64,000 bases of DNA from a virus. The notes below the pieces were generated by a model that was not told the origin of the DNA, did no database searches, and saw only the letters and a program-made list of their open reading frames with translations. Of this stretch, positions 1-58,645 are shown piece by piece. Position 1 is the stretch's first letter. Each line of letters starts with the position of its first letter. Both the position numbers and the translations under genes were made by a program. The stretch lies in the IMG/VR virus record IMGVR_UViG_3300009001_000006, positions 49,833-113,832 of that record. One strand, 5' to 3'.

Positions 1-1560
1 AACGGAAAAATTGATTTAGATATTAGTTTAGAAAATATCTGTCTAAGTTGTAATAAAACTTGGAATTTGATTTCTGAGGGTAATACAAAGGGTTGCTTTC
101 AGCTGGAATCTAGGCTCGGTCAAATGATGTCCAAAAAATTAAAACCTAATAATATTGAGCAACTTTCTGCCCTAATTAGTATTATGAGGCCGGGATGTCT
201 AGAGGCTTATCGTGATGGAAAATCGGTTAGCAATCATTATATAGACAAAAAGAATCAAGAAGAAGAAGTAGATTTCTTTCACGAGTCTTTAGAGCCGATA
301 TTAAAAACCACTTATGGAGAAATGGTTTATCAAGAACAGGCTATGCAGATATGTCAGAAAGTAGCTAATTTTGACCTTACTGAAGCTGATAGACTCAGAA
401 AAGCAATTGGTAAGAAAAAGCCAGAAGAAATGAAGAAAATCAAAAAACTTTTCATTAAAAAAACAGCCGAAACCAAAATATTATCAAAAGAAGAAGCTGA
501 TCAGGTATTCGGATGGATCGAAAAAAGTCAGAGATATAGTTTTAATAAAAGTCATGCTGTTAGTTATGCATATAACGCTTATCTATCGGCCTATATTAAA
601 GCTCATTTTCCTAAACATTTTTTTGCATCTTATCTTAAATTTGCTAAAGATAAAATAGACCCGCTCAAAGAAATACAAGAATTAATTAATAACGCCAACC
701 AAATGGGAATTGATGTGTATAAACCAAGCATATCAAAGCCAAGAGAAGAGTTTTTTATAGACGAAAATGATCACCAGATATATTTTGGTCTTACTGATAT
801 TAAGGGCGTTGGGGGATCTGTATATCAAAAAATTATAGAGATATTAAATAATATTAATCTTAAAGATATTAGTTTTGGAGAATTATATTGTAAATTTTTT
901 CAACATATTAATTCTACAGCCGTTAAAGCCCTGATTTCTGTTGGCGCTATAGACTGTTTGTCTATCTCAAGAAATAGAATGCTATTCTACTATGATTGTT
1001 TAAATAATTTAACAAGTAGAGAGTCGGGTGTTATTGAAAATATTTTTCAAAAAGAAAAAGAGATTGATAAAGCTTTAGGTTTATTGGTTGATAATACAGA
1101 AAAGAAATTGACTGCGAAAAGAAAGGATGTTATCCTATCAATTATCAACAGTATACATAAGCCACCCTACAGTCTACAGGATAGTCCAGAATGGATAGCA
1201 AGTAATGAGAGATTTTATTTGGGTATATCTTTGACTTGTCACAAAATAGATGGTTGTGATATTTATTCTGCTAATGTAGAATGTAAAGATTTACTCAAAA
1301 GTGGCTGTCCAAAACAGCCGGTTTTAGGTGCTGAAATTGTAGATATCAATGTTATAAAAACTAAAAGAGGGCTTAATCCAGGTCAAGAGATGGCTTTTGT
1401 TAAAGCAGAGGATTCTACTGGTGCTTGCGATCTGGTTATTTTCCCCGAAGAATTTAATAAATACAAGGATTTACTAATGGAAGGAAATACCCTATTATTA
1501 AAATTAGATAGATCCAAGAATAAGGATTCTTTTATAGTAAAGAAATGCTGGCAAGTGTAG
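1..1560 (+). CDS. dnaE: DNA polymerase III alpha subunit (family C), C-terminal part; frame open from base 1 (5' truncated by window)
   Basis: Motifs GCFQLES, ALISIMRPG, LKTTYGEMVYQEQAMQI, EADRLRKAIGKK, YSFNKSHAVSYA, FGLTDIKGVG (HhH) and a C-terminal OB fold (MAFVKAEDSTG..DLVIFP). Frame 1 has no stop from base 1 to 67. Confidence 0.95.
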   Translation, partial: NGKIDLDISLENICLSCNKTWNLISEGNTKGCFQLESRLGQMMSKKLKPNNIEQLSALISIMRPGCLEAYRDGKSVSNHYIDKKNQEEEVDFFHESLEPILKTTYGEMVYQEQAMQICQKVANFDLTEADRLRKAIGKKKPEEMKKIKKLFIKKTAETKILSKEEADQVFGWIEKSQRYSFNKSHAVSYAYNAYLSAYIKAHFPKHFFASYLKFAKDKIDPLKEIQELINNANQMGIDVYKPSISKPREEFFIDENDHQIYFGLTDIKGVGGSVYQKIIEILNNINLKDISFGELYCKFFQHINSTAVKALISVGAIDCLSISRNRMLFYYDCLNNLTSRESGVIENIFQKEKEIDKALGLLVDNTEKKLTAKRKDVILSIINSIHKPPYSLQDSPEWIASNERFYLGISLTCHKIDGCDIYSANVECKDLLKSGCPKQPVLGAEIVDINVIKTKRGLNPGQEMAFVKAEDSTGACDLVIFPEEFNKYKDLLMEGNTLLLKLDRSKNKDSFIVKKCWQV

Positions 1561-16137: not shown

Positions 16138-19100
16138 TTACGCTATTCTACCCAATGTTGTCAATGCTTGTAATTTTGTTTGTAAAGCCTCGGCAATTTG
16201 GCGCTTATCTTCTTCACTTAATTTATAGTTACTATCTTGTGGTGCTATTAGTTCTACTCTAATAGTATCACTATTAACATTAATAGTATCTGGAATATTA
16301 GGTCCTTTAATCTCAATATTTTTCAATCCATTCAGAGCGTTCACAAGTTTATCAACATGATTACCAAAATTATTAACAGGTCCGCCAAGAGCAGGAAATA
16401 CTCTGGCTAAATTATTAATTAGTCCACCAAAAGCACTAGTTTCGCTATTAAAGTTTCTGATAAATGTATTAAATACACTTTCTGCACCAGACATATCCAA
16501 ACCTAAGGCTCCGCCAACCATTCGCCCCATAGAACTTAGGCCACCATCAAAATAGTTCCTAGCTTGTATTACACCGCCAGATCTAGCATAGGTTGCTCCC
16601 CCCATATGAGTTGGCATTGACCCATTATTAATAGATTTAAGCAACGGTAAGTGTTTTTGCGTAGCGGCCCTATTAACCACAAACTCTCCCGGAGTAAGCA
16701 TAGCAGGAACAGTATCTGTTCCCTTTGGCTGATAGTTTACAAGTGTAGAGCCGCCACCGCTAAGATAATTTGGTATTGAACCACCCCTAGCTCTTTTAAC
16801 AGGTTCTTGCATTTGTATTTCTTTTTGGCTTACAATAAATTCTTTATTATCAAAAGGAGTAGGTGCCCCAATTAAGCCTCTAAATTCTTGTTGACCCTTA
16901 CCACCCTTACCAGATTCTGTTAATATGCCACCACCCTCAAGTATCATATTATAAGGATCTTTACCAGGAGCTAAGGCAGCTTGATACTTATCTAGAAATC
17001 CATTGGCACTAATCTGTTTGCCGCCAATAGTAAAGCTACCAGCTTTAGTTTGGGTGTCAGAAATAACACCAGCAGCATTTTCATCAATAATTCTAGCAGT
17101 AGTCTGATCGCCCTTCACAAAGTAATTCTTTAAAGAATCCCATAATGTATATATAGGCTTTAATTTTAATATGCTACTATCTAAATCTTTTTCATATTTA
17201 CCGTATATGGGATCTTGCAAAGTTGACGCAAAATCAAAATCTTTTACATAATCTAATCTAGCCTGTCTATTTGTAATACCTAATCTTTGACCAAAATTTA
17301 ATGCACTGGCTAGCAATCCAAGGATAGTGGTTTTCTTTGTTGTTTCTCCAGATAAATCAGTAAATCTATCTCTATCTTGTGCTGATATTTCAGTGCTACC
17401 AGCAGATGCGAAAAGATTAGCAATACCAGCGGCTTGTTTGGCTCCTCCGGTTCCTGCGCCGCTTAAAGCCCTATTAACAGCATATGTTTTACCCGCTCTA
17501 ATTCTTTTGATACTATTTCTATCAGTTAGTACGGTTTCCCTAAGCGCATCACCTGCCATATTGATACCAAGTCTTCTAGCTACTGTATCAAAACCATCAG
17601 CTGATGTAATGCCACCGAACTCGTAATCAAAATTATCTTTAATAAATTTGGGTACCTGACCGTTGATAGCATTTCTGTATTTTTTGATACGCTGCTCTTC
17701 AGTGCCAACTCCAGGTCCAAATCTTGGGAAATTTAATGGAGCGAAACCAGGATTAGCTCTGCCATAAATGCCACGATTCATTTGTGCGGTATATTTTTCT
17801 AATGCTCCAGCTATATCTTCCCATGAGCCAACTTTATCTTGAGGCAGTGATTCTGCTTCTTTACCCTTTTGCTTGGATATATCTTGAAGTCTTTTTCGTG
17901 TTTTATTTAAAAATGCCTGTTCATATTGTTTACCAAAATCTCTATTAAATGAATTAGCGGCACCAGTTACACTCCATAAACCAAATTTACTAGCAATAGT
18001 ATCACCAAGCTCGTCGGTAACTCCTACATTATACATGTTCTTGAGGGTGTCTAGCATCCAACCAGGATCAGCAACATCGCTATCTAATAATTGTATAGCA
18101 TCAGGATTAATACCTTTAAGCCAGTTATCCATATCAGATTCTGTTTGTGGTATTGGGTTAGCACCAGGAATACCAAGAGACTGACCATAATTCTTTAATA
18201 ATTTTTGAATATTATTATTAACAGTTGTGGTATAAGGATTCATTACTTCTTCAAGATTTAGCCCTGGTTTTCCATACAACATATCATCATCCATTTGCTT
18301 AAATGGATTAATTCTAGTTCCACCAAAAGAAGCGTTAGCTGGGTGGTTGAACAATACATATTGTAGAGTTCGTAAACCAAGAGTATCATTACCACCTATT
18401 CTTTGTTCTGGATCGTTACCTAGTTCTTCTCTGAATTTCCATCTTTTCTGAAGAAATTCAAATTCTAAATACTTATCATCATAATTGTCTTTATCTTTAT
18501 AGTATTTGTCCCATTCTTTATGTTTAGCTTTAAGTTCAGATCTCCTATCAGCTTCTTTTTGTAGGTAACCCTTAAGTTGTGCTGGTGTACTAGCTCCAGA
18601 CTGAGCTTCATACTTAGACATCATCTTGTTAATATCTGCTGCTGTTTGTTTCTTTTGTTTCTCTGTAGCTTTACCTTGACTGCTTTTTGACATCCATTCT
18701 GCATTAGCGGCTTTCATCATCATATCTGCTTTTAAAGCTTCTGATTCATCATCTACTTGTTGTTTAGTAGCAGCAATACTTAATAAACCAGCTTTGATAG
18801 GTTCGTCACTAACGCCTTTTACAGGACCGAAGGTTCTGGTATAGTCTAGTTTGGTATTATTAAATTTATTTAGTAATGTAGAATCACTTTCTGTTCCCTC
18901 ATCTTTAGCCGTTTGTAAAGCTTGAAATCTTTGTTGAAATCCAGCAAGCAGTTGAGCATTACTGGTGACTGTTGTGCCTTGTTGTTGTTGAACCAACAAC
19001 TCCTGAAGACGAACATTATCGTCGATAACGCTGTCTTTTAGCATAGCCTTTTCTAAATCATTAGGCTCTACCGATTTAGGTTTTGTTGGAGGCTCAAGAT

Positions 19101-22100
19101 TAAATTTAGGTTCTTTTGTTGGTACTCCAAGATTAAATTGTGCTCTATAATCACTTTCTAATAATTGTTTTAAACTGTCTCTACGATGAGTTAAGGCTAA
19201 AAGCTTGTCTTGTTGAGGAGAACTAGTTTGAGAATATAAATCTCTAATTCTATCCATAACCTCTAAATATTCAGCTTCATAAGTTTGTCTAGCACTTTGT
19301 GTTAAAAGCTCGCCCTTAGCAACACCGCCATCTTGACTATTTCCACCTAATTCAAATTCAGGAATACTAATTCTTCTAGCATAGTAATTAACAACACCAA
19401 GAGGATCTATTAAGCCTTTATTTCTAGCTTGTACAGCCTGACCGAATCTGTATTTGCTAGTATCTTCACCTACATTCTCACCACCCGTAGCGTCCATAAT
19501 CTCTGCATTAGTACGCTCAAATACTCTTCTACTATGCTCGGAATGCTGTTCAATCGCTTCTCTAGAAGCTGGTGTTGGTGGTGGTAAAGATCTAGGAGCT
19601 GGTAATGGATCGGCACTAGCGCCTGCGCCTCCTACATCAATCGGTGACGCAAAACTATCGTCATATAGCTCGTCGCCAATTCCTTGGCCTACTGAAGTCA
19701 TTCCTCTTGGGGCTCGTGGAATTGGTGCTGGAGGTACTGGTGGGGGCGTAACATCATCAGCTAGTCTAGCAACATCATCAAGAGTTGTTGCGCCTGTATC
19801 TATCTGAGTGGTTCCTGGTAGGGGGCTAGCATCATCAGCCATTCTAGCAACATCATCAAGAGTTGTTACGCCCGTATCTATCTGACTTGATCCTGGTAAT
19901 GGCTTAACATCATCAACCGCTGTGGCTGGAGCGGCTGGCACTGGAGGAGGCATCAAATCATCGGCTGCTTTGGTTGATAGTGGTACTTGAATATCTGGTG
20001 CGCCACTAGGCGTTGGTTTACCTTTCAATGTACGTCTAGATAGCTTAGCTGCTTTTTGACCAATTAATTTTCTACCCTTTTCTACAGCTTCGCCAACTTT
20101 CATTGTTGCGGCACTAACACCAGTTTTAGTGTTTGCTACAGCTTTAGCTAATATTCTAGGTGTTGCTGTTTTATAAAGACCCTTTATAACAGCATTAGCG
20201 CCAGCATCAGACAATAGCATTTCAGCAGCAAAACCAGTCCATTGACCTGCACTATATGAACCTGGATTTTCTTGAACTTTCTTAACAATTCTGTCTTTCC
20301 ATCCGCTAGGAAGCCAGCTATAGGCGTAACTATTCACACCATGACCAATGAGGTTTCCGGCCATAGCGCCACCAATAGTCCACAACGGTAAAGCAACCGC
20401 CGAACCAACACCAGCGGTAGGTACTCCAACAGCTGTACCTGCTACTACACCTAATCCACCGCCAATAATACCCCCAAGAGTGGGTAGAGCTTTAGAGGCT
20501 AATCCATAAAAATAAGCTTCAAGATCAACAGCATTTCTAGAAGCAATACTTCTTTCAAAAATATCATTAAATCCGCTTCTAACATTAGGTTCCATAGGTA
20601 ATTTTGGATCGCCACCATAATTTTTGCCAGTTACTGCTGGGTGGCTTGTAGACGCATTACCAACAGAATCTTTGCCAAATAATGGAATACCATGAGCAGC
20701 CTCCATCTCTATAGCAAACTCACGAGCATCTTTAAGAGAATCAAAAGATGTACTGCTCCAAGGTTGACCTTCTTTTTCTTTTTCTTTCCAATCAGGAATT
20801 AATACTTTTGCTCTTTGATATTTAATAATATTGCTAGGTGAAAAATATTGTTTCTTATGGTCACTAATAATCTTATTTAATTTAGTAACTTCTGTATCGC
20901 TAACACTACCATCTTTGTTGCCAATAAAATCCATATAATCAAATGGAACTGTATCTTTATTGGCTTCATAATCATCAACTGAATCTTTGTTATATCGTTT
21001 AAGATTGCCAAAATTACGATAAGCAGTTGTATTTCCTGTTCCAATCTGACCACCCATAGCTCTATATTCAACCTGACCGCCATTATAATAATTACCACTA
21101 TTAATAGAATTCAATAATGGTAGATTCTTCGCGGTTGCGGCCCTATTAACAACAAATTCACCAGGAGTAAGCATAGCTGGTACTGTATCTGTACCTCTTG
21201 GTTGGAAATTAATCATTTGTCCAGCAGCAGCATAAACAATACCTCCAGTAGCTAGACCTTGACTATCTGCTGGACGACCCAAACCTAATCTGTCGGCAAC
21301 AGCATTTAACTCTGCAACTATATTATCTGTGGCTGTCTTCATTCTAGAGGTAAAGTCGTCAGCACCCTGTCTTAATGCGTTAGCAGTCAACTCTGCGCCA
21401 GTACCAATCAATTTAGATTGTTGTTCTACAGCCAATGTTTGTTGTTTAATAGCTTCTTGATAAGCATCAACAAAAGGTTGGATTGCTGGATTCTGATCTT
21501 GTGGTGCGAAATCTGCTGCAAAAGTATCTCTAAACTGCTGGATAGTTGCAGGGTTGCCACCAGCATTTTCCAAAATAGTCATAGCATTATTAAAAAACGC
21601 TTCTTGTGTTCTGGCAAATTCTTCTGGAGTTTGAGTACTTTCTACCATTCTTAAACTAGAAATACCTTGAGCAATATCGTTCACAGTGCCTGTTCCAGCC
21701 ATAACGTTAGAGTAAGACACCTGTTCCTGTCTCATTTGCATCAATGCTTCTGGATTATTTACATTGGCAAGAAAATCCATTACACCACTACGTCTACCAG
21801 CAGAAATTCGCTGCTGCTCATCTATTTTCTTTAGGGCATTAGAGGCTCTATCAGTGCTAGTAGCTAGTATATCTAAAGCTCTTTGGTAACTATTAATTTT
21901 TGATGTAAGCTTAGCAATTTGTCCTGATCCAAGAGCACTAGTTTGTGTATTTGGATCTGCTTCTAACGCTCGTTTCTGAGCAATAGCTTCTGCTATCATG
22001 CTGCCAATTTTAGCAGCGTCAGTTGTTCCGCCAGTTAAACCTGATACAGAACCCATGAATGGTGCGTTTAGGTCGGCCAAGCTAATTGTTCTATTAAATT

Positions 22101-25100
22101 TATCCGCAAGATCATTGGCGCTTTGTAATTGTATGTCTCGAACCTTAATAACATTATCTTTTAATCTGTCTAATTGACCAGCAAGCTGATTAGATATGCC
22201 ACCAAGAACCCTGTTGGCCTCTACTTGTTTTTTAGCATATTCTTCAAAAGTACTTCTAGCTTTTTCTGCTGCTGCATCTAATTCTTCAAGACCTTTGATG
22301 TTATTGGCTAAATCTTCATAACTCATACCTTGTCTATTACCGGTAGAATCGCTAATATAGTTTATAATACTATCTTCAAGATCTTTCTTAATATTTTTGT
22401 CAATATCCACGCCAGTAAACATTGTTTGTAATCTGTCTCTAATATTACTTTCGGCACCAGCGTCAATAGGTCCGCTATCAGCAGTATCTCTAAGAATTAA
22501 TGGTAATTCTTTTCTCATTACTTGAAGACCTTTAACGAGATCTCCCATTTGTCTGGTTTCTTTAGTATCTCCTAAACTTGCATTAATATTATCTACAACA
22601 CCAGCTAGCTCTTGAGAACTATAAGCAGTTATATTAGATAATGTTCTAACAGCATTTTCTTCTGGATCTGCAGAAGCAACATTACCACCACTATATTCAT
22701 CAGCAATCCTAGATAATCTACTAGAACTAGCAGCAATCTCAGATGTAACCCTATTCATTGTGGCACCAAGCCTATTCATTACATCTGTAAGATTTAGAGT
22801 GAATTTTTGTAATTCTCTATTAACCCTTATCATTTGCCTATTAAGGGCTATGCTACGGTTTTGTGCTCCTGATTCTTCTGCAATAGCTCTAGCGACCTTT
22901 TTTCTCATTTCAGGATCAGAGCTTTCGTATTCTTTCTGAGCCGTACTAAGATCAATGCCCTGTCTTTCTCTTCTTTGTAGATATAATCTTTTATTAACTT
23001 CTTCACTAGCCTCAACAACAATCTTTTCGGCTTTTATTCTATCATCGCCGCTTAAAGTGTCAAGATATTCTTGTACGGTCTGGTTTTCTCCCATTTCATA
23101 ACCAGCGCCACTAAGCTTAGCTCTAGCCTGATTTTGTAATAATACATTAAGATCATTAATCCCACCAGAAGCATCCCTAGTACTAGCATACTGAGCTCTT
23201 CTTTGTTCTGCTGTTAAATTAGCTCTTTCAACAGTATCAACTTTACTCAAAAATTTTCTAGAAGATTCTGGATCTCTTGTAATACGTTGGGTTTCTAAAT
23301 CAACTAATTTTCTTAATTGTTCCAGTGAGGCTATTTGGGCAGCTAATTGTTGCTCTTGGGCTGTGTTATCAAAGAAACCCGAAATACCACTCAACAAAGT
23401 ATCACCCAAAACATACGTCAGCATAGTCCCAAAACCACTACCAAAAAATTTACCTATGGTACGAAATACAGGGGAAACTATCTTAAATAGCCCTTTAGTA
23501 AGTGTTGGCCCGATTGTTCTAAAGCCAAGCCTAATAGCGCCTACAATTAATTTACCTATTATACCACCAGCAAAATGGCCCTGTCTAGCAATACCTCCAC
23601 CAGCATAACCAATACGAGAGATACTACCCCCGCCAGAGTAACCTTTAGCACTTATTGAACCGCTAGAAATTTTACCTCCAGTAGCAGCCCTTAAAGCATC
23701 CATCGAAGAACTTTTGATTACATATGAATTAGCTGGTAAATTAGTCTTAAAATTATCAACCTTACCACTACCCTTACCTGGAACAATACCCATAGGTGCG
23801 CCATCAAGCATATCTGGATTAGCACCATAACCATTTTTATCTGCGTTATTTAATCTTTGCAATTGCATGTCAGAAAACTGTGAGGCTACTTCTGGAGATA
23901 GTACCCCTTCTCCTGCGGCCAAATGTACAGGAACCAATGGCCCATCAGATCCGCTAGAGTAACCTACGCGACCACCAATAGCCATACCCCTTCTGCCACC
24001 ACGACGACGACCACGCCCCATTGGCATAGGAACCATACTTGCTGCTTGAGTCATTCTAGCAGCAGCCATAAAGCCTATTACGGTAGATAATGTACTAAGA
24101 AAACCTTCTAAACCACTGCTTAAAGCATTCCAAATTCTATTACTTTCTATTTCCTGAGCAGATTTACTCAAAGCTTGATTCAAAGCCTCATAATCATCAT
24201 TTAATTGCTTAACTAGTTCTTGTCTTTCTGCTATTGTTTGAGCCATATCTAAGCGGCTAAGTGTTTTATCTAAATTACTAGAGGCTTCAGTTACACCCCT
24301 CATAGCGTTTTCTACTTCTTTAGCTGTAGATTCTTTAATAAATCCACTAACGGCGCCACCAGCTAAACCAATAGCACCACCAACAGCAGCTCCTCTTCTA
24401 CCAAACGCTTGTTGACCTAATACAGCACCACTCAAACCAAAGCTACCAGCAGATTTTAACGCTCCAGTAACACCAGCCACAGCTTCGCTATGATCTGATA
24501 CGGTTCCGGTAAGCTTGTCGAAGGAATCGATTAGTTGTGGTAATTTACTAGCTAATAATGTTGAACCTGCACCTAGTATTCCTGTCAGCCCTCCCATCTT
24601 ATCACCAATCATAGTGATTTTATCGGCCACATCAGGGAAAGAACTAGATAGTCGAGCCATACCAGGAAGATTAGCTGTACTAAATTTAGTACCAATATCG
24701 TCAAGTATTTTACCAAAACCAGATTCTATACTTTCCTGTGCTCCTCTAAGATCCATTTTATCAAATGCGCCAAACTTACCCTCGCTTAAGGATTTTTGTG
24801 CTCTAAAGTCTATATCTTTTGTTTTCATTCCTTCGGTTAAGAAGCCCAATTCTTTAGCCATTTTTTCTTGAGCTTCAGCTGCCATATCAATAGCATCTAT
24901 TTGACTATCAAGTGTATCGGCCCATTCTGCTGATTTAGCTTTTATTTCCTCAAGAGATAAACCTTTCTTCATCATATCAATTAAATCATCCAGACTTTCA
25001 CCAAAAACATCAGGATCAATTTGATCTACACCGCCATACATTCTTTCTACAAGATCTTGTACTTGGGCTCTGACTACACCTTCTACATCAGCATCACCAA

Positions 25101-28100
25101 TAGATTCCATATTTTTAGTAATAATATCCTGAATATCAATTTGATATCCTGTGTTTTCATCCGCTCTTTGGGCGGCAGTATTCATAATTCTGGCACGAAT
25201 CATCTTCTCATATTTTTCAACTGTCATGCCTAATTTTTCAGCCATTCTAGCAACATAAGCGGCTTTATCATCTTCAACACTGCCACCACCAGCAAAACGC
25301 TGAACAAAACCAACAGCACCACCCTTATTAAAGCCTTGAATTCTGTCGGCTTTATTTAATTTATTGAGTTTTTCAGAACCAAGCTTTTTAGCCGCTTCTT
25401 TATTAATTACAAACTCGCCAGGAGTTAATAATGCTGGTACAGTATCTTGTGGTGAGCCACCATTAGCAAATCTTTGTATTTGTTTACGATATCTATTAAC
25501 TTGACCTAGAAAATCATTAGGACTTTTCCCCTTACCAAATACTGTTCTAGTAGTATCAGTAGGAATATCTGATGGTATACCGAATAATGCAGCAGCATTC
25601 CCTATACCTCCAGCAAAATCGATAGGATCATTTGTTTCATCTTTATCATATGGTGCTCCTAGTGTAGCAATAGCAGCTTCAAGATATGCCCCAATAGCAT
25701 TGTATAATCCAGCTTTTTCCATCTGATTTTTATCTAGGGCGGCAGCTGATGCACCCACTCTACTAGCCATATTATTACCAACTACAGCTACAGTTTGCTC
25801 AAAACCATCAGTCATCATTTTTTCATATTCATCAGATAATTTTTTATCTAATGTTTTGCCAATAAGTTGGACCGTATCACCATCTTCGGTTTTGGCTGTT
25901 ACGTTTCTAGGACTACCATATAAACCAACTAAACCATATTGTTTAGCTCCAACAAGTTCTTGTTCTTCTTGAGCAACAGCTTGTCTTTGCTGAATTCTTT
26001 TTTGTAGTTGTGATACAGTAAATAGGTTCTTTTGTACGTTCGGGTTTTCTAATAGTGCAGCAGCTTGTTTTTCGGTTAGTCTTTCTATATCAGATTTATT
26101 AATTTTACCAGTTTTAGCAACCTTAATACCTCCAACATCACCGCCATCATCAAATCTTTGTACCAACCCACCACTAGCGAACTGTTCTAAAAATTCTACA
26201 TTACTAAATTGATCATAAAGATTTTGAGGGATAGATGTTGGGGCATTGATGGTGCCCTGCAATTGTTTGGTGGATCTTTTGTCCTGGCTGCCAGATCTTA
26301 AAGCATCGTCTAGTCTTTGTTGTCTTTGTTGTGTAATTTTTTCAGCAGGAATTATTAATGCGGTGATTTGTCGAGCGCCAGACATAATGCTCTGTGCTTG
26401 AGGACTAAAATCTCCGCTCTTAGTTTCACCAGCACTGCTTAATACCATAAATTCTTTAAATTTATCTAAATCATCAGCAGATAATACAAAATTTTTACCG
26501 AATCTTTGAGTAGCAAAAGTGGTTTTACCAGAACCTGCTGGCCCACTAATAACATCATAATCTTTGCCAGAACTTAAAATAGCATTTAATACGTCTTTAC
26601 TACCAGCACCAATCATATCGCTATCAAAGATACCAACGCCACCAAATTGTTCACCCTGTTTAACGCCTCCACCTCCAGCAAATTTTTGCACCATGCCGCC
26701 AGAAGCTAACTTACTTCTTTCTCTATCATAAACAAGTTTTTTATTACCCATACTTTCAAGAGTTTTTAATTGTGTCGCCTTAACTTTTTCTGACTGCACC
26801 TTTCCTGTTGCAACATTATCTTTATTAGATGTTCTAAGAGCAACACCTTCAGCAACCATCTGGTTTACAATACTATTAGGAACACTATGAACAGGTCTAC
26901 CGCCAACAGATTGTCCCTGCGTTAAAGCCTTACCTAAACTATGGTCAATAGACATTTTGCGAGAATCAGTAAAAGCCCCTTGAGCTATTTCTGTAGCTCT
27001 TTGACCTAGAGCCCTTTCCCACGCTAAACCCTTTTTGATTTCATAAGCATCATAACCTTCACCACGACTAGTCATTGGTCCAACTGGACTAGATTCTGGA
27101 ATATAGGATACATGCCACGAGTCGCCGTCATATGCATCATGCGCCTGTATTTTTTCGATTCGTCCCCCACGAGCATAACCCTTAATTCTACCACCACGAT
27201 TCAACTGCTCAAGATTTTCTACACCTATTTTTTCAACAGCTTTCTTGCGAATGACATATTCACCTGGTGTTAGCATTGCTTCTACAGTATCTCTATTGCC
27301 AGTACCAGGAACCTTGCCACCACTAGCAAAACGCGGAACTGGACCGCCTTTATTAAGTCCTAGACCTGAATCTGAATCACCGCCATCAATATTAAGATTT
27401 GATATTGTACCATTTAATTCTTGCATTGTGGCCATGAGGTCGGCCATAGTTTTCATTAAACCACTAAGAGCATCAGTATTACTAGACATAATAGTAATCT
27501 GACTAGTCAAAGCATCTGTATTAGCGGAAATAGCAGCTGTATTAGCTAATATAACATCGCTATAATCATCTTTCTCTGATCCGCCAGCACCACCGCCACC
27601 AGTACCTCCACCAGTACCACGACCAGTACCTCCACCACCTCCTCCGCCACCAGGCATGCCTCCAGTAGCACCACCTCCGCCACTGCTAGTTTTTCCTAAG
27701 CCCCCCAGAAAACCGCTACCAAATTCACTAAGAATCGAGGCTCCTTTAATAGCAGCAAGAGCTGTTAACATGGGTAGTAAAGGTTTAAGTGCGCCAGCAA
27801 GACTAATAAAAGCATTAGCTGTTGTTAAACTTACGCTAGCTATAGTTCTAAAAGTTGTACTATTGCCAATATCTCTTACCAACGCCACAAATGATTGTCT
27901 TGTTTTCTCAAATTGCACAGCAAGTGAGGCTTGGGCTTGTATTGCGGCTTTGCTAAGACTGCTCTGACCACCCTGAGCCACAGCCAAAGCTTGTTGTGCT
28001 GTGGTAAATTGTTGAATAAGAGGAATAACCTTACCTATCTGGCGGAAACCACCAAGCTCTTCAACAATCTGACCAAAGCGAACATCTCTAGGGTCTAGAC

Positions 28101-29208
28101 CCTGTAAACCTTCGCTTAGTCTGCGAACAGCTTCATAAGGACCAACGAATTTTCCTTCTAAATCTGTTAAAGTGATACCATATTCTTTAAGGGCTTCAAT
28201 AGTTGAACCTCTTTGAATTCTTGTGAATATGGTTCTTAAACCAGTAGCGATTGTTTCAGCACCTTCACGAGTAGTGGCTCTAACGCTAGTAAATAATGCT
28301 ACGAATTCATTTAAAGCATCTGTACCCTGACTAACACCTTGACTAGCACTAGCAAACACACCACCAGTACGCTGAATAGCTTTGATAATGTCGCCAGCTT
28401 CTACAGCAAAAGCGGCTGCAACAGCATTAATGCTACCAAGAGAAGCTTCCAATTCAGAGCTAGATATACTGAACTGCTTCATTAAAGCAATGCTGCCTTC
28501 AACAGTATCGTTAAGATTATCAAAAGAAGGAGCTAGTGCAGATTTAGCTAGAGCTTCAAGTGCTGTTTTAGCTTCTTGAGCACTTAAACCAGCTTGAGCA
28601 AGTGTTACAGAAATTTGTAATAGATCTGTGGAGGCAACACCAAGATTAGTAGATAGTCTTGTAATTTCATTAGTAATACCCTGTAATCCAGCAACGCTAC
28701 TTCCGGTAACTTGACTTAACCTAATTAATTGTCTATCAAACTGAACAAATTCTTTATAGGCACTATTAACAGCATTGGTTAAACTATAAACAACGCCGGT
28801 AACAGCACTAAACGCAGCAAATCTTCTAATAGCAAGACCAGATTGCTTGCCAAATTCTTGAATCTGTGATGTGGCAGTATCTATAGATTTACCGGCGCTC
28901 GAAGTCTGTTTTTGTATTTTGGTTAAAGACTGTATAGAACCAGAACCTAAGCCACTTAAACCTGCACCTAATTGAGCAATGCTTTGATTTAATTGGGTAA
29001 CATTTTTATTGGCTAGAGCAGCATTTCTTGATAAAGACTGTAATTGTTTATTAATATTAGCAACATTTTTAGCTGCTGCTCCCTTTAGATCCAAATCGAC
29101 CTTAACTTTAATACCAGAAAGTTGCTTTCTCATTTGAGAAGCAATAGCTCTAGTATTAGTAGGACCTCTAAGATTAATCTGTGCGGTAAGATTAAATGCT
29201 GCTGCCAT
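16138..29208 (-). CDS. tail tape measure protein, 4356 aa, multidomain
   Basis: N-terminal TP901-type core (RLSQVTG...LSTNLGVAS...LAQAGLSA...NAVAAAFAVEAGDI...TREGAETIATGLRTIFTR); repeated xxGG/DTVPAMLTPGEFV motifs; position after tail tube and chaperones. Confidence 0.93.
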   Translation of the reverse strand: MAAAFNLTAQINLRGPTNTRAIASQMRKQLSGIKVKVDLDLKGAAAKNVANINKQLQSLSRNAALANKNVTQLNQSIAQLGAGLSGLGSGSIQSLTKIQKQTSSAGKSIDTATSQIQEFGKQSGLAIRRFAAFSAVTGVVYSLTNAVNSAYKEFVQFDRQLIRLSQVTGSSVAGLQGITNEITRLSTNLGVASTDLLQISVTLAQAGLSAQEAKTALEALAKSALAPSFDNLNDTVEGSIALMKQFSISSSELEASLGSINAVAAAFAVEAGDIIKAIQRTGGVFASASQGVSQGTDALNEFVALFTSVRATTREGAETIATGLRTIFTRIQRGSTIEALKEYGITLTDLEGKFVGPYEAVRRLSEGLQGLDPRDVRFGQIVEELGGFRQIGKVIPLIQQFTTAQQALAVAQGGQSSLSKAAIQAQASLAVQFEKTRQSFVALVRDIGNSTTFRTIASVSLTTANAFISLAGALKPLLPMLTALAAIKGASILSEFGSGFLGGLGKTSSGGGGATGGMPGGGGGGGGTGRGTGGGTGGGGAGGSEKDDYSDVILANTAAISANTDALTSQITIMSSNTDALSGLMKTMADLMATMQELNGTISNLNIDGGDSDSGLGLNKGGPVPRFASGGKVPGTGNRDTVEAMLTPGEYVIRKKAVEKIGVENLEQLNRGGRIKGYARGGRIEKIQAHDAYDGDSWHVSYIPESSPVGPMTSRGEGYDAYEIKKGLAWERALGQRATEIAQGAFTDSRKMSIDHSLGKALTQGQSVGGRPVHSVPNSIVNQMVAEGVALRTSNKDNVATGKVQSEKVKATQLKTLESMGNKKLVYDRERSKLASGGMVQKFAGGGGVKQGEQFGGVGIFDSDMIGAGSKDVLNAILSSGKDYDVISGPAGSGKTTFATQRFGKNFVLSADDLDKFKEFMVLSSAGETKSGDFSPQAQSIMSGARQITALIIPAEKITQQRQQRLDDALRSGSQDKRSTKQLQGTINAPTSIPQNLYDQFSNVEFLEQFASGGLVQRFDDGGDVGGIKVAKTGKINKSDIERLTEKQAAALLENPNVQKNLFTVSQLQKRIQQRQAVAQEEQELVGAKQYGLVGLYGSPRNVTAKTEDGDTVQLIGKTLDKKLSDEYEKMMTDGFEQTVAVVGNNMASRVGASAAALDKNQMEKAGLYNAIGAYLEAAIATLGAPYDKDETNDPIDFAGGIGNAAALFGIPSDIPTDTTRTVFGKGKSPNDFLGQVNRYRKQIQRFANGGSPQDTVPALLTPGEFVINKEAAKKLGSEKLNKLNKADRIQGFNKGGAVGFVQRFAGGGSVEDDKAAYVARMAEKLGMTVEKYEKMIRARIMNTAAQRADENTGYQIDIQDIITKNMESIGDADVEGVVRAQVQDLVERMYGGVDQIDPDVFGESLDDLIDMMKKGLSLEEIKAKSAEWADTLDSQIDAIDMAAEAQEKMAKELGFLTEGMKTKDIDFRAQKSLSEGKFGAFDKMDLRGAQESIESGFGKILDDIGTKFSTANLPGMARLSSSFPDVADKITMIGDKMGGLTGILGAGSTLLASKLPQLIDSFDKLTGTVSDHSEAVAGVTGALKSAGSFGLSGAVLGQQAFGRRGAAVGGAIGLAGGAVSGFIKESTAKEVENAMRGVTEASSNLDKTLSRLDMAQTIAERQELVKQLNDDYEALNQALSKSAQEIESNRIWNALSSGLEGFLSTLSTVIGFMAAARMTQAASMVPMPMGRGRRRGGRRGMAIGGRVGYSSGSDGPLVPVHLAAGEGVLSPEVASQFSDMQLQRLNNADKNGYGANPDMLDGAPMGIVPGKGSGKVDNFKTNLPANSYVIKSSSMDALRAATGGKISSGSISAKGYSGGGSISRIGYAGGGIARQGHFAGGIIGKLIVGAIRLGFRTIGPTLTKGLFKIVSPVFRTIGKFFGSGFGTMLTYVLGDTLLSGISGFFDNTAQEQQLAAQIASLEQLRKLVDLETQRITRDPESSRKFLSKVDTVERANLTAEQRRAQYASTRDASGGINDLNVLLQNQARAKLSGAGYEMGENQTVQEYLDTLSGDDRIKAEKIVVEASEEVNKRLYLQRRERQGIDLSTAQKEYESSDPEMRKKVARAIAEESGAQNRSIALNRQMIRVNRELQKFTLNLTDVMNRLGATMNRVTSEIAASSSRLSRIADEYSGGNVASADPEENAVRTLSNITAYSSQELAGVVDNINASLGDTKETRQMGDLVKGLQVMRKELPLILRDTADSGPIDAGAESNIRDRLQTMFTGVDIDKNIKKDLEDSIINYISDSTGNRQGMSYEDLANNIKGLEELDAAAEKARSTFEEYAKKQVEANRVLGGISNQLAGQLDRLKDNVIKVRDIQLQSANDLADKFNRTISLADLNAPFMGSVSGLTGGTTDAAKIGSMIAEAIAQKRALEADPNTQTSALGSGQIAKLTSKINSYQRALDILATSTDRASNALKKIDEQQRISAGRRSGVMDFLANVNNPEALMQMRQEQVSYSNVMAGTGTVNDIAQGISSLRMVESTQTPEEFARTQEAFFNNAMTILENAGGNPATIQQFRDTFAADFAPQDQNPAIQPFVDAYQEAIKQQTLAVEQQSKLIGTGAELTANALRQGADDFTSRMKTATDNIVAELNAVADRLGLGRPADSQGLATGGIVYAAAGQMINFQPRGTDTVPAMLTPGEFVVNRAATAKNLPLLNSINSGNYYNGGQVEYRAMGGQIGTGNTTAYRNFGNLKRYNKDSVDDYEANKDTVPFDYMDFIGNKDGSVSDTEVTKLNKIISDHKKQYFSPSNIIKYQRAKVLIPDWKEKEKEGQPWSSTSFDSLKDAREFAIEMEAAHGIPLFGKDSVGNASTSHPAVTGKNYGGDPKLPMEPNVRSGFNDIFERSIASRNAVDLEAYFYGLASKALPTLGGIIGGGLGVVAGTAVGVPTAGVGSAVALPLWTIGGAMAGNLIGHGVNSYAYSWLPSGWKDRIVKKVQENPGSYSAGQWTGFAAEMLLSDAGANAVIKGLYKTATPRILAKAVANTKTGVSAATMKVGEAVEKGRKLIGQKAAKLSRRTLKGKPTPSGAPDIQVPLSTKAADDLMPPPVPAAPATAVDDVKPLPGSSQIDTGVTTLDDVARMADDASPLPGTTQIDTGATTLDDVARLADDVTPPPVPPAPIPRAPRGMTSVGQGIGDELYDDSFASPIDVGGAGASADPLPAPRSLPPPTPASREAIEQHSEHSRRVFERTNAEIMDATGGENVGEDTSKYRFGQAVQARNKGLIDPLGVVNYYARRISIPEFELGGNSQDGGVAKGELLTQSARQTYEAEYLEVMDRIRDLYSQTSSPQQDKLLALTHRRDSLKQLLESDYRAQFNLGVPTKEPKFNLEPPTKPKSVEPNDLEKAMLKDSVIDDNVRLQELLVQQQQGTTVTSNAQLLAGFQQRFQALQTAKDEGTESDSTLLNKFNNTKLDYTRTFGPVKGVSDEPIKAGLLSIAATKQQVDDESEALKADMMMKAANAEWMSKSSQGKATEKQKKQTAADINKMMSKYEAQSGASTPAQLKGYLQKEADRRSELKAKHKEWDKYYKDKDNYDDKYLEFEFLQKRWKFREELGNDPEQRIGGNDTLGLRTLQYVLFNHPANASFGGTRINPFKQMDDDMLYGKPGLNLEEVMNPYTTTVNNNIQKLLKNYGQSLGIPGANPIPQTESDMDNWLKGINPDAIQLLDSDVADPGWMLDTLKNMYNVGVTDELGDTIASKFGLWSVTGAANSFNRDFGKQYEQAFLNKTRKRLQDISKQKGKEAESLPQDKVGSWEDIAGALEKYTAQMNRGIYGRANPGFAPLNFPRFGPGVGTEEQRIKKYRNAINGQVPKFIKDNFDYEFGGITSADGFDTVARRLGINMAGDALRETVLTDRNSIKRIRAGKTYAVNRALSGAGTGGAKQAAGIANLFASAGSTEISAQDRDRFTDLSGETTKKTTILGLLASALNFGQRLGITNRQARLDYVKDFDFASTLQDPIYGKYEKDLDSSILKLKPIYTLWDSLKNYFVKGDQTTARIIDENAAGVISDTQTKAGSFTIGGKQISANGFLDKYQAALAPGKDPYNMILEGGGILTESGKGGKGQQEFRGLIGAPTPFDNKEFIVSQKEIQMQEPVKRARGGSIPNYLSGGGSTLVNYQPKGTDTVPAMLTPGEFVVNRAATQKHLPLLKSINNGSMPTHMGGATYARSGGVIQARNYFDGGLSSMGRMVGGALGLDMSGAESVFNTFIRNFNSETSAFGGLINNLARVFPALGGPVNNFGNHVDKLVNALNGLKNIEIKGPNIPDTINVNSDTIRVELIAPQDSNYKLSEEDKRQIAEALQTKLQALTTLGRIA
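19753..19903 (-). repeat. ~78-bp tandem duplication inside the TMP (PLPGxxQIDTGxTTLDDVARxADD x2) in a Pro-rich linker
   Basis: Two copies are visible in both the protein and the DNA (ctagcaacatcatcaagagttgtt). Confidence 0.85.
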
Positions 29209-37111: not shown

Positions 37112-38734
37112 CTAGATTACGTACCACACATTGTTATAAAACACCATGCTAACGCTTTCGTTTTCATAGTAAAGATTGATGCTTCCACCATCTATACTAT
37201 GTCCACTGTTACCGCTAATAGTAAGTGTACCACTACCATCATCAACTTTCTTAACAGTAGCGACTTGACCATTGCTAGGACTAGCATGCATAGTTAAAGT
37301 AAAACTATTAGTGCTAGTGGTTACAAGAGTTACGTCGTTACTAGCTGTAGAAGCTGAATTAGCAGTGTCAACAGACTTGAAGCTAGCAGCAGCACCAGCT
37401 ACGAGCTGGCCGCTACCATTTCTTGTGATAGTACTACCATCAATTTGAACAGTCATGACACCGCTGCTAGCAGCAAGAGATGTATTAGCAGTTGTACCAG
37501 CAACGCCAGCAACCATGTCTGCAATAGTGTCTCTTTTTGAAGTACCATCACTATCTCTAAAGAACATGCTATCTGCAGCAACATCTACAGCAGCATCACT
37601 AACGATAAGACTACCAGTAACATCACCAGTAACATCACCAGTCAAATCGCCAGTAACATTACCAGTCAAATCGCCAGTAACATTACCAGTAACATTGCCA
37701 GTTAAATCACCAGTCACATCACCGGTCACATTGCCAGTCACATTACCTGTAACATTACCAGTTAAAGTACCAGTAATGCCACCAGAAGCACTAAGGGTGG
37801 TAAATGCACCACTACTAGCTGCATTAGCTCCAATAGCAGTTCCATCAATAGCTCCACCATTAATGTCTACGGTAGTAAAAGTAGAAGTACCGCTTGAAGT
37901 AATATTACCCGTAACATTACCGGTTACGTTGCCGGTTACATTACCAGTTAAATCACCGGTTACATCACCAGTAAGATCACCAGTTACATTACCAGTCACA
38001 TTTCCGGTAACATTACCAGTTAAATCACCGGTTACATCACCAGTAAGATCACCAGTTACATTACCGGTAACATTTCCAGTAACATTTCCAGTAACATTGC
38101 CAGTTAAATCACCGGTCACGTCACCAGTCACATCTCCGGTCACATTACCTGTTAAATTACCAGTAACATTACCAGTAACATTACCGGTAAGATCACCAGT
38201 AACATTACCAGTTACATCACCCGTAAGATCGCCAGTAACATCACCAACAATATTAGCCGCAAGTGTACCAAGACTAATATCTAAATTACCAGTACTTGCG
38301 CCAGTAGCTGTTGTAGTACCAAGAGTAAATCTGTCTTCGCTTTCATCCCAAACGAAAACAGCATTATCTCCAGTACTGCCTCTTTCGATAATAAAACCAG
38401 AATCATTACCATTGCTTTCAGCACCATTATTCAACTCAATCAAAGTGTCTGCAACAACAGTATTGGTACTATTAACAGTAGTTGTAGTACCATTAACGGT
38501 AAGGCCACCATCGATAGTTACATTGCCGCTAGCATCAATAGCGATTGCGCTATTAGCACTATCTGAACCAATATAACCACCATCAGGAAGCACTACACCT
38601 GGGGCATACAGCTTGCTATTATCGTAATACAGATTACTGCCGTCCGAATCAAATTTGTTAGAGCTTGCATCAGAACCAAAAAACACCAAACCCTTTTGAT
38701 TGCCGCCGCCGGCAGCTATAGGACTATAACTCAT
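37112..38734 (-). CDS. fibre protein with (G[ND][VL]T)n repeats
   Basis: LTVNGTTTTVNST..VADTLIELN..DSGFIIERG fibre motif; long GNVT/GDLT tracts. Confidence 0.85.
   Translation of the reverse strand: MSYSPIAAGGGNQKGLVFFGSDASSNKFDSDGSNLYYDNSKLYAPGVVLPDGGYIGSDSANSAIAIDASGNVTIDGGLTVNGTTTTVNSTNTVVADTLIELNNGAESNGNDSGFIIERGSTGDNAVFVWDESEDRFTLGTTTATGASTGNLDISLGTLAANIVGDVTGDLTGDVTGNVTGDLTGNVTGNVTGNLTGNVTGDVTGDVTGDLTGNVTGNVTGNVTGNVTGDLTGDVTGDLTGNVTGNVTGNVTGDLTGDVTGDLTGNVTGNVTGNVTGNITSSGTSTFTTVDINGGAIDGTAIGANAASSGAFTTLSASGGITGTLTGNVTGNVTGNVTGDVTGDLTGNVTGNVTGDLTGNVTGDLTGDVTGDVTGSLIVSDAAVDVAADSMFFRDSDGTSKRDTIADMVAGVAGTTANTSLAASSGVMTVQIDGSTITRNGSGQLVAGAAASFKSVDTANSASTASNDVTLVTTSTNSFTLTMHASPSNGQVATVKKVDDGSGTLTISGNSGHSIDGGSINLYYENESVSMVFYNNVWYVI
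37612..38250. repeat. 12-bp degenerate tandem repeats encoding G[ND][VL]T (two blocks, ~37612-37770 and ~37900-38250)
   Basis: Iterated accagtaacatt / accagtaacatc / accagttaaatc. Confidence 0.95.
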
Positions 38735-58569: not shown

Positions 58570-58615
58570 AATAAGCCTGTAGTTTGTGGTTGTGTTCTGC
58601 TTTGTCTATTATAGG

Positions 58616-58623
58616 TATACACT
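58616..58623 (-). promoter_or_regulatory. putative late promoter motif AGTGTATA heading the Cys-rich array
   Basis: 47 nt upstream of the start at 58569. Confidence 0.6.
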
Positions 58624-58645
58624 ATTTTTATACAAAAGGGCGTTG

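What the first reader, a model, noticed from the sequence alone, without database searches (positions are those of the whole stretch)
26185..26640. P-loop kinase-like domain inside the TMP, next to the nuclease
Seen: YDVISGPAGSGKTTFATQRFGKNFVLSADDL and an Arg-rich lid-like segment (QQRQQR...RSG..DKR), bounded by FAGGG and FASGG linkers. Established: this pattern matches AAA_33/polynucleotide-kinase/NMP-kinase-type P-loop proteins. Inference: an injected kinase. SNase products have 5'-OH ends, so the pair could be functionally coupled (end-healing or nucleotide scavenging), or it could counter RNA-cleaving defences.
Basis: partly seen in the sequence, partly recalled or inferred. Interest (0 to 1): 0.7.

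Follow-up and report, generated by a model that had tools for sequence, protein, structure and literature searches.

The report
Conserved P-loop kinase-fold domain in tape measure
A giant tail tape measure protein of an uncultured phage carries a small, intact ATP-binding domain with a nucleotide-kinase shape; the domain belongs to a previously undescribed family kept in dozens of related phage tape measures and as free 150-residue proteins, and it is not tied to the neighbouring "nuclease".

Summary
On the minus strand, aa 857-1008 of a 4356-aa tape measure protein (TMP, 16138-29208) form a discrete domain between FAGGG and FASGG linkers, with an intact Walker A.

It is not chance. 65 representative proteins carry it: mostly 1500-5500-aa TMPs, plus free 147-159-aa proteins. 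D8, G36, G38, K39, R109, D120 and R122 are invariant. AlphaFold gives pLDDT 89.

The invariant Asp pair lies before the P-loop, the same shuffled order as in ng_zeta1 (Asp56 before Lys115). This suggests a hydroxyl-directed kinase; the acceptor is unknown.

Coupling to the SNase-like segment is not supported. That segment is absent from all 64 relatives and is replaced by largely dissimilar sequence in a phage whose P-loop domain is 97% identical. It has no Pfam, PDB or homologue support.

Delivery into the host is untested. The scan has not noted this domain on other DNA.

The parts
16138..29208 (-). Giant tape measure protein gene (4356 aa, P0001) that hosts the domain
   Evidence: Single open frame. 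Pfam PhageMin_Tail PF10145 E=2.1e-24 at aa 180-384; PHROG TMP families 4211, 28 and 14441. It lies downstream (minus strand) of a gene with a PHROG minor-tail-protein match, in the minus-strand gene block that also holds the large terminase.
26185..26640 (-). P-loop kinase-fold domain (aa 857-1008; P0002)
26617..26628 (-). F-D-S-D at the end of strand beta0 (domain residues 5-8): proposed Mg2+/general-base Asp pair placed before the P-loop
   Evidence: D8 is in 44/44 members and D6 in 43/44. Strand 2-6 appears in the model. ng_zeta1 chains align from model residue 1-3 to chain residue 48-51, which puts D8 within about one residue of catalytic Asp56. The residue pairing is inference.
26518..26544 (-). 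Walker A, GPAGSGKTT (domain residues 33-41)
   Evidence: G36, G38 and K39 are in 44/44 members and T41 in 42/44. All Pfam and PDB sequence hits centre here.
26314..26325 (-). R106-x-x-R109 on the helix after strand beta4
   Evidence: R109 is in 44/44 and R106 in 43/44 members. hhalign of the family against the ng_zeta1 family aligns K39 with Lys115 and R109 with Arg175 (probability 52%, 77 columns).
26275..26283 (-). D120-K-R122 lid-like motif
   Evidence: D120 and R122 are in 44/44 members. The motif lies in the loop between helices 99-115 and 124-130 of the model.
26641..26682 (-). Upstream Gly-rich linker (KFAGGGGVKQGEQFG)
   Evidence: Motif scan. In distant relatives the same position holds GG[YF]IPNFA.
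26137..26184 (-). Downstream linker (QFASGGLVQRFDDGGD)
   Evidence: Motif scan.
26683..27141 (-). Variable cassette slot (the 'SNase-like' segment, aa 690-842). It is listed as the neighbour the finding refers to and is not part of the conserved unit.
   Evidence: 0 of 64 relatives carry it. It is absent in L004, and in L003 shows only 29.5% identity over 61 aa although the flanking domains are 97-99% identical. No Pfam, PDB, NCBIfam or homologue hit.

Best explanation
The segment is an autonomously folding P-loop phosphotransferase domain of about 135-150 aa with a stripped-down nucleotide-kinase fold. It founds a family that current domain libraries do not model. It is a constant module of a lineage of very long tape measure proteins, placed after the N-terminal TMP domain and the first DTVPAxLTPGEFV module, and it also exists as a free small protein in other phages.

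Proposed mechanism (inferred). The Walker A loop (K39, T41) binds the NTP phosphates and Mg2+. The invariant Asp pair at the end of the strand that precedes the P-loop (D6, D8) supplies the Mg2+/water ligand and the general base that activates a hydroxyl acceptor. R106 and R109 on the following helix and D120-x-R122 in a short lid stabilise the transferred phosphate.

The order 'Asp strand first, P-loop second' is the shuffled order described for the gonococcal zeta_1 UDP-sugar kinase. There is no NMP-binding subdomain, so the acceptor site is open. The acceptor could be a polynucleotide end, a nucleotide-sugar or something else, and is unknown.

Free copies sit among small non-structural genes, and the same residues are invariant in free and fused copies. 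The activity is therefore most likely cytoplasmic. On this reading the TMP fusion would deliver a pre-made enzyme with the ejected tape measure. Delivery itself is not shown.
For: Shown:
- The domain and motifs exist.
- 65 representative homologues, 31 of them sharing the N-terminal TMP domain. Distant members also carry PF10145.
- Invariant D8, G36, G38, K39, R109, D120, R122.
- Purifying selection: 17 synonymous versus 5 non-synonymous codon differences, none at invariant sites.
- Confident model.
- Language-model neighbours are AAA_33, Zeta, CPT and APS-kinase fragments.
- ng_zeta1 has Asp56 before Lys115 through 'shuffled sequence blocks' (PMC5923241); the sequence was checked in L050.
- hhalign family-versus-family: K39 aligns with K115 and R109 with R175.
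- Free-standing copies lie in small-ORF clusters next to sigma-factor, sugar-dehydratase, ClpP and terminase genes, not in tail modules.
- Zeta-like kinases are already reported in virion-delivered polyvalent proteins (PMC5512222).
Against: - Sequence-level links beyond Walker A are marginal (hhalign 52%/26%/56%).
- There is no acidic residue at the usual Walker B position (S68).
- The zeta_1 substrate residues K59 and N75 have no identified counterpart.
- Nothing shows that a folded 150-aa domain fits in a tail tube, that the TMP is unprocessed, or that this part reaches the cytoplasm.
- No biochemical data exist for any member.
Confidence: 0.55

Rival explanations
1. An NTP-binding or NTP-hydrolysing switch that serves the tape measure itself, with no external phosphoryl acceptor. 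Examples: nucleotide-dependent oligomerisation or chaperoning of a very long TMP during tail assembly, or an energy-using step during ejection.
Against: The same domain with the same invariant residues occurs as a free 150-aa protein in gene clusters that are not tail modules. There is no Walker B acid or catalytic Glu after strand beta3 (S68 in 38/44). GTPase NKxD and DxxG motifs are absent from the alignment. The best fold matches are transferases.
Confidence: 0.22
2. A zeta-toxin-like UDP-sugar kinase. Once in the cytoplasm it phosphorylates UDP-GlcNAc/UDP-MurNAc and stalls peptidoglycan synthesis, as proposed for zeta-like domains fused to phage MuF proteins.
Confidence: 0.1
3. One reading: a polynucleotide 5'-kinase that works together with the adjacent SNase-like nuclease (end healing, scavenging) or repairs RNA cut by host defences.
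Against: The SNase-like segment is absent from 64/64 relatives and is exchanged in a near-identical phage, so the pairing is not conserved. The segment is not verified as a nuclease. D57 is Q, S or E in 11 of 44 members. No RNA ligase family was found in the 114 kb held, which is 79% complete. No phosphatase partner was noted.
Confidence: 0.08
4. A non-catalytic phosphate- or nucleotide-binding module, for example one that holds a DNA end or a nucleotide cofactor, or a purely structural spacer that kept a P-loop.
For: No activity is shown. The canonical Walker B acid is absent. The domain lies in the N-terminal part of the TMP; that this end faces the head and the DNA end is taken from general knowledge of siphophage tails, not tested here.
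Against: Seven charged or Gly residues spread over four motifs are invariant down to about 30% identity. That is more than binding alone usually requires. Free-standing copies exist.
Confidence: 0.05

Closest known systems
ng_zeta1, the Neisseria gonorrhoeae plasmid epsilon/zeta toxin (PDB 6EPG/6EPH/6EPI; Rocker et al. 2018, PMC5923241)
   Different: No sequence similarity beyond Walker A with the single sequence (probability 26%) and only 52% family to family. No Pfam Zeta_toxin match. No counterpart of K59/N75. The spacer between Asp and P-loop is about 30 residues shorter. There is no OB domain and no antitoxin. It is embedded in a phage tail protein rather than a plasmid TA pair.
AAA_33 / polynucleotide kinase type kinases (T4 Pnk, Clostridium thermocellum Pnkp kinase domain, PDB 4GP6/4JST)
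   Different: Scores are below every curated cut-off (AAA_33 17.2 versus 27 bits; Pnkp 13.4 versus 750). The PNK-type Asp is not invariant in the family. There is an extra N-terminal strand with an invariant DxD. No phosphatase or ligase partner was found (RNA ligase searched; phosphatase not searched).
NMP kinases (adenylate kinase, UMP/CMP kinase)
   Different: No NMP-binding subdomain: only one short helix lies between beta2 and beta3. The invariant Asp pair suggests a hydroxyl acceptor, which NMP kinases do not need (my inference). No sequence match.
Zeta-like kinase domains in phage and conjugative-element 'polyvalent proteins' (Iyer et al. 2017, PMC5512222)
   Same: The concept is shared: a P-loop kinase domain built into a large multi-domain protein that travels with the virion or DNA, flanked by other swappable enzyme cassettes.
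   Different: Those are recognisable Zeta_toxin domains fused to MuF (head) proteins. That paper does not mention tape measure proteins (0 occurrences). This domain is a separate sequence family.
Enzymatic domains embedded in tape measure proteins (peptidoglycan hydrolase motifs of mycobacteriophage and T5-type TMPs; general knowledge)
   Same: A catalytic module is inserted in a TMP.
   Different: The known examples act on the cell wall from outside the cytoplasm and need no ATP. A P-loop domain needs cytoplasmic NTP. No paper found here reports one in a TMP.

Membership tests
P-loop NTPase superfamily | Walker A G-x4-GK[ST] on a strand-loop-helix in a parallel alpha/beta sheet | tested here: met
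   GPAGSGKTT is present. G36, G38 and K39 are invariant in 44 members. The model has strand 27-33, a loop, then helix 39-47, at pLDDT 89.
P-loop kinase (nucleotide-kinase) fold | Overall fold superposes on solved P-loop kinases better than on other P-loop classes | tested here: met
Pfam AAA_33 (PF13671) | Score at or above the gathering threshold (27 bits) over most of the 143-position model | tested here: not met
   17.2 bits, E=0.0064, model positions 4-33 only. 4 of 14 members hit, best E=8e-4. The genome search gives 16 bits, below cut-off.
Polynucleotide kinase (T4 Pnk / bacterial Pnkp) | Conserved general-base Asp directly after the strand that follows the P-loop helix | tested here: inconclusive
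   D57 is present in this protein, but the column is D in only 33/44 members (Q 7, S 2, E 2).
Polynucleotide kinase (T4 Pnk / bacterial Pnkp) | Significant sequence match to a Pnkp model or a solved PNK | tested here: not met
   TIGR04075 gives 13.4 bits against a cut-off of 750. CthPnkp gives E=1.3 (single sequence) and 0.012 (profile), Walker A region only.
Polynucleotide kinase (T4 Pnk / bacterial Pnkp) | 5'-OH polynucleotide phosphorylation | not testable with these tools
   This needs a kinase assay on 5'-OH oligonucleotides.
NMP kinases | NMP-binding subdomain between strands beta2 and beta3 | tested here: not met
   Only one 6-residue helix (55-60) lies between the beta2 position and strand 63-69 in the model.
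Zeta toxin (PF06414) | Match to the Pfam Zeta_toxin model | tested here: not met
   The family is not listed at E<=1 for P0002, nor among the 25 families shown, of 33 matched by any of the 14 members. 119 of the 120 listed ng_zeta1 homologues carry it.
Zeta toxin, ng_zeta1 subclass | Catalytic Asp-bearing block placed N-terminal of the P-loop block | tested here: inconclusive
   The sequence order D6/D8 before K39 is met. Co-linear structural alignment runs from model residues 1-3 to chain residues 48-51. The residue-level pairing D8 = Asp56 could not be read because no coordinates or alignment were returned.
Zeta toxin, ng_zeta1 subclass | UDP-sugar binding residues (Lys59, Asn75), invariant or nearly so in that family | tested here: inconclusive
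   K59 is in 120/120 and N75 in 119/120 zeta_1 homologues. The reliable part of the hhalign alignment starts only at the P-loop, so no counterpart could be assigned.
ASCE ATPases (AAA+, RecA, SF1/2 helicases, ABC) | Walker B hhhhD/E with a catalytic acid on the strand next to the P-loop strand | tested here: not met
   Strand 63-69 ends in Ser (S68 in 38/44 members), with no acid. Matches to AAA_30, AAA and similar models cover only the Walker A region.
Phage tape measure protein (host protein) | PhageMin_Tail domain, and a very long ORF following a tail gene in the block that also holds terminase | tested here: met
   PF10145 E=2.1e-24; PHROG TMP families; gene order.

The most novel reading that the evidence does not exclude
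A lineage of uncultured phages has made a minimal, topologically shuffled P-loop kinase a fixed part of its tape measure protein. A ready-made ATP-dependent enzyme would then enter the cell ahead of the DNA and phosphorylate a host or defence-related molecule (for example a nucleotide signal, a UDP-sugar or a nucleic-acid end) before any phage gene is expressed. This would be a new enzyme family and a new class of TMP-borne effector.
Probability: 0.25. Interest if true: 0.8.

Novelty: new variant of a known kind. Interest (0 to 1): 0.55.

Why it matters
Tape measure proteins are usually treated as rulers that sometimes carry cell-wall hydrolase motifs. Here an ATP-dependent catalytic fold is a conserved, selected part of a whole TMP lineage, next to a slot where other cassettes are exchanged. 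If the domain is active and delivered, TMPs would join MuF and N4-type virion proteins as carriers of pre-made cytoplasmic effectors. The domain would also add a new minimal family to the P-loop kinases, with the rare Asp-first block order so far described only for gonococcal zeta_1. At about 150 aa, with free-standing natural versions, it can be tested directly by expression and assay.

Tried and rejected
- Library and sequence searches. Pfam, PHROG and NCBIfam scans of the domain, of 14 members and of free homologues gave only sub-threshold Walker A hits. The NCBIfam thiolase hit (20 bits against a cut-off of 412) is noise. PDB sequence and profile searches also matched only Walker A.
- tblastn of the domain against 50,697 GenBank phage records and 72,556 plasmids found no match. 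DNA search of the region against phages gave one 108-nt match at 72% to a marine single-cell virus.
- The word-indexed homologue search for near-length relatives found one fragment only.
- The search for related loci failed or found nothing useful with alignment A1 (no conserved stretch) and with P0034, P0022 and P0029 (no relatives in IMG/VR).
- RNA ligase families were not found in the genome. For one of them the control genomes were also silent, so that result is uninformative.
- hhalign to E. coli AroK (56%, 36 columns) and to single ng_zeta1 (26%, 30 columns) covers little beyond the P-loop. Global and low-mact hhalign gave no trustworthy N-terminal pairing.
- The idea that the N-terminal FDSD mimics the shikimate-kinase 'FYDSD' after a permutation is kept only as a resemblance.
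- AAA+/RecA/helicase readings are rejected for lack of Walker B and of any such fold among the top matches.
- SNase check: no Pfam, PDB, NCBIfam or homologue hit, and a useless single-sequence model. Its nature is left open.
- Literature searches for P-loop, Walker A or polynucleotide kinase in tape measure proteins found nothing relevant.

Full report
**1. What is there**

The finding lies on the minus strand. The plus-strand frame is full of stops. The reverse complement of 26185-26640 reads without a stop as 152 residues (P0002), which are aa 857-1008 of one open frame, 16138..29208(-), 4356 aa (P0001).

That protein is a tape measure protein. It has Pfam PhageMin_Tail at aa 180-384 (E=2.1e-24) and matches three PHROG TMP families. 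It lies downstream (minus strand) of a gene with a minor-tail-protein match, in the same minus-strand block as the large terminase.

The window is the right-hand 64 kb of a 113.8-kb IMG/VR virus record estimated 79% complete. The Walker A at aa 889 is the only one in the protein. FAGGG (aa 843) and FASGG/FDDGG (aa 1010/1019) bracket the segment.

**2. Is it more than chance?**

Yes.
- A full HMMER scan of 1.84 billion representative proteins found 65 with E<=1e-3, 26 of them with E<=1e-10. Nearly all cover positions 1-4 to 130-152 of the query.
- Most are proteins of 1500-5500 aa. 31 share the N-terminal TMP domain of this protein, and two distant ones tested also carry PF10145.
- Six are complete proteins of 147-159 aa. 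They begin with Met one to three residues before the first strand in five of the six (nine in P0019) and end after the last one. The segment is therefore an autonomous domain.
- In an alignment of 44 members reaching down to about 30% identity, D8, G36, G38, K39, R109, D120 and R122 never vary. D6, R106 and T41 vary in one or two sequences.
- Against a relative with 95% nucleotide identity (L003), the domain has 17 synonymous and 5 non-synonymous codon differences, none at an invariant site.

**3. Fold**

With 14 family members as the alignment, AlphaFold2 gives mean pLDDT 89.4 and pTM 0.82. The elements in order are:
- strand 2-6
- helix 14-23
- strand 27-33, followed by the P-loop
- helix 39-47
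- a single bridge at residue 51
- helix 55-60
- strand 63-69
- helix 80-88
- strand 92-95
- long helix 99-115 (carrying R106 and R109)
- helices 124-130 and 140-144
- strand 148-151

Fold comparisons:
- Foldseek against the PDB gives no hit below E=1e-3. The list is headed by adenylate kinase 1, UMP/CMP kinase, C. thermocellum polynucleotide kinase, mammalian PNKP and zeta toxins.
- BFVD shows the same classes weakly.
- The protein-language-model search returns AAA_33, Zeta, CPT and APS-kinase fragments at a score (0.82) that is only a lead.

These scores are all in the range the tool calls 'middling', so none proves kinship with a given family. Taken together with the invariant Walker A, they place the domain in the nucleotide-kinase branch of P-loop proteins. 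They do not place it among AAA+, RecA-like or helicase ATPases, whose Walker B acid it also lacks (S68).

**4. Sequence-level membership**

No curated model reaches its threshold. AAA_30 scores 22 bits and AAA_33 17.2 bits (cut-off 27 for each), and both cover only the region around Walker A. The same holds across 14 members, in PHROGs, in NCBIfam and in PDB sequence and profile searches.

There is no match in GenBank phage records or in plasmids. Literature searches found no report of a P-loop domain in a tape measure protein. At the sequence level this is an undescribed family known only from metagenomes.

**5. The Asp-first order**

In AAA_33, PNK, shikimate-kinase and streptococcal zeta enzymes, the catalytic or Mg2+-binding Asp follows the P-loop helix. 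Here that position (D57) is Asp in only 33 of 44 members. An Asp pair at the end of a strand before the P-loop (hFD6-S-D8) is invariant.

Only the gonococcal zeta_1 chains align with the model from its first residues: model 3..152 to chain 51..216 (122 residues, rmsd 3.1 A), and model 1..152 to chain 48..216.

Rocker et al. 2018 (PMC5923241) report three relevant points for zeta_1:
- The P-loop lies unusually far from the N-terminus.
- 'Two sequence blocks were shuffled' relative to other zeta toxins.
- Asp56 is the base, Lys115 is the P-loop lysine, and Arg175/Arg181 line the site.

I fetched the gene from plasmid pEP5289 and confirmed ..YVCAD56TFK.. and GIPGSGK115T.

If the first few residues of the structural alignment are ungapped, D8 falls on or next to Asp56. 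This is inference, because only alignment ranges are returned.

A profile-profile comparison of the 44-member family with 120 zeta_1 homologues aligns 77 columns from the P-loop strand to the arginine helix. It pairs K39 with Lys115 and R109 with Arg175, at a probability of 52%. Attempts to extend it to the N-terminus were not trustworthy. The domain does not match Pfam Zeta_toxin, whereas nearly all zeta_1 homologues do. It also lacks identifiable counterparts of the UDP-sugar ligands K59 and N75.

My reading is that it works like a hydroxyl-directed P-loop kinase with the zeta_1 block order. It is not shown to be a zeta toxin.

**6. The neighbour**

The evidence is against this.
- That segment matched none of the 64 relatives.
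- In L004 (P-loop 60% identical) the P-loop follows the TPGEFV module directly.
- In L003 the P-loop is 97% and the next domain 99% identical. The roughly 180 residues in that slot share only 29.5% identity over 61 residues with the segment here, and they have no Pfam match either.
- The segment has no Pfam, PDB, NCBIfam or homologue support, and its single-sequence model is uninformative.

The picture is a constant P-loop module next to a variable cassette slot, not a conserved enzyme pair.

The next domain (aa 1025-1245) recurs in three relatives, on either side of the P-loop. RNA ligase families were not found in the 114 kb held, and one of the two searches lacked a working control.

**7. 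Context of free copies**

Two free-standing copies could be placed. In L034 and L005 the gene lies in a cluster of small ORFs of unknown function. That cluster is divergent from an operon with a sigma-factor-like gene, a GDP-mannose dehydratase/epimerase and, in L005, ClpP and terminase. An endonuclease VII-like gene is nearby in L034. The L005 copy is frame-shifted.

These are not tail modules. This argues that the activity is not tied to tail assembly, and it fits a cytoplasmic role.

**8. Verdict**

The best explanation is a new family of minimal P-loop phosphotransferases that is fixed in a tape measure lineage. I give about 0.9 that it is a functional NTP-binding P-loop domain, about 0.55 that it is a kinase acting on a separate acceptor, and much less for any particular acceptor.

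The main rival is an NTPase that serves the TMP itself. Whether the folded domain is in the virion, and whether it reaches the cytoplasm, is open. The scan's earlier notes on this genome come from first readers only, and the domain has not been noted on other DNA.

Noticed in passing
window 26683-27141 (-), and L003:5464-6000: The slot between the first TPGEFV module and the P-loop domain holds different sequence in near-identical phages (29.5% identity over 61 aa, while the flanks are 97-99% identical) and is empty in L004. It looks like a cassette-exchange site inside the TMP. Neither version has a Pfam match.
   Followed up: partly
window 25471-26136 (-) (aa 1025-1245 of the TMP): A further globular domain with no Pfam, PDB or NCBIfam match. 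It recurs in three relatives (P0003, P0007, P0010), sometimes before and sometimes after the P-loop domain.
   Followed up: partly
TMP aa 647, 1262, 2681, 4172 (window about 27250, 25400, 21150, 16680, minus strand): Four DTVPAxLTPGE[FY]V modules match PHROG 35029 (unknown function). They recur two to five times in most related TMPs, always between cassettes. In distant relatives GG[YF]IPNFA takes the place of the FxxGG linkers.
   Followed up: partly
L005:8001-8409: The free-standing homologue in this IMG/VR contig is interrupted by frame shifts or stops. It could be a decaying copy or an assembly error.
   Followed up: no
L034:5685-6419 and neighbours; L005:5306-5848: Phages with the free-standing domain encode a sigma-70 region-2 protein, a GDP-mannose dehydratase/epimerase and, in L005, ClpP next to the small-gene cluster that holds it. 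L034 also has an endonuclease VII-like gene there.
   Followed up: no
window 58586-60103 (+): A 505-aa ORF with an HNH endonuclease core lies on the opposite strand to the surrounding genes.
   Followed up: no
window 2111-4836 (+): Two adjacent glycosyltransferase genes (PHROG 2170) follow the DNA polymerase fragment at the window start.
   Followed up: no
window 37112-38734 (-): A 540-aa protein matches the baseplate hub / tail lysozyme and tail fibre PHROGs. Most other structural genes of the block have no PHROG match at all, so the phage is very distant from cultured ones.
   Followed up: no
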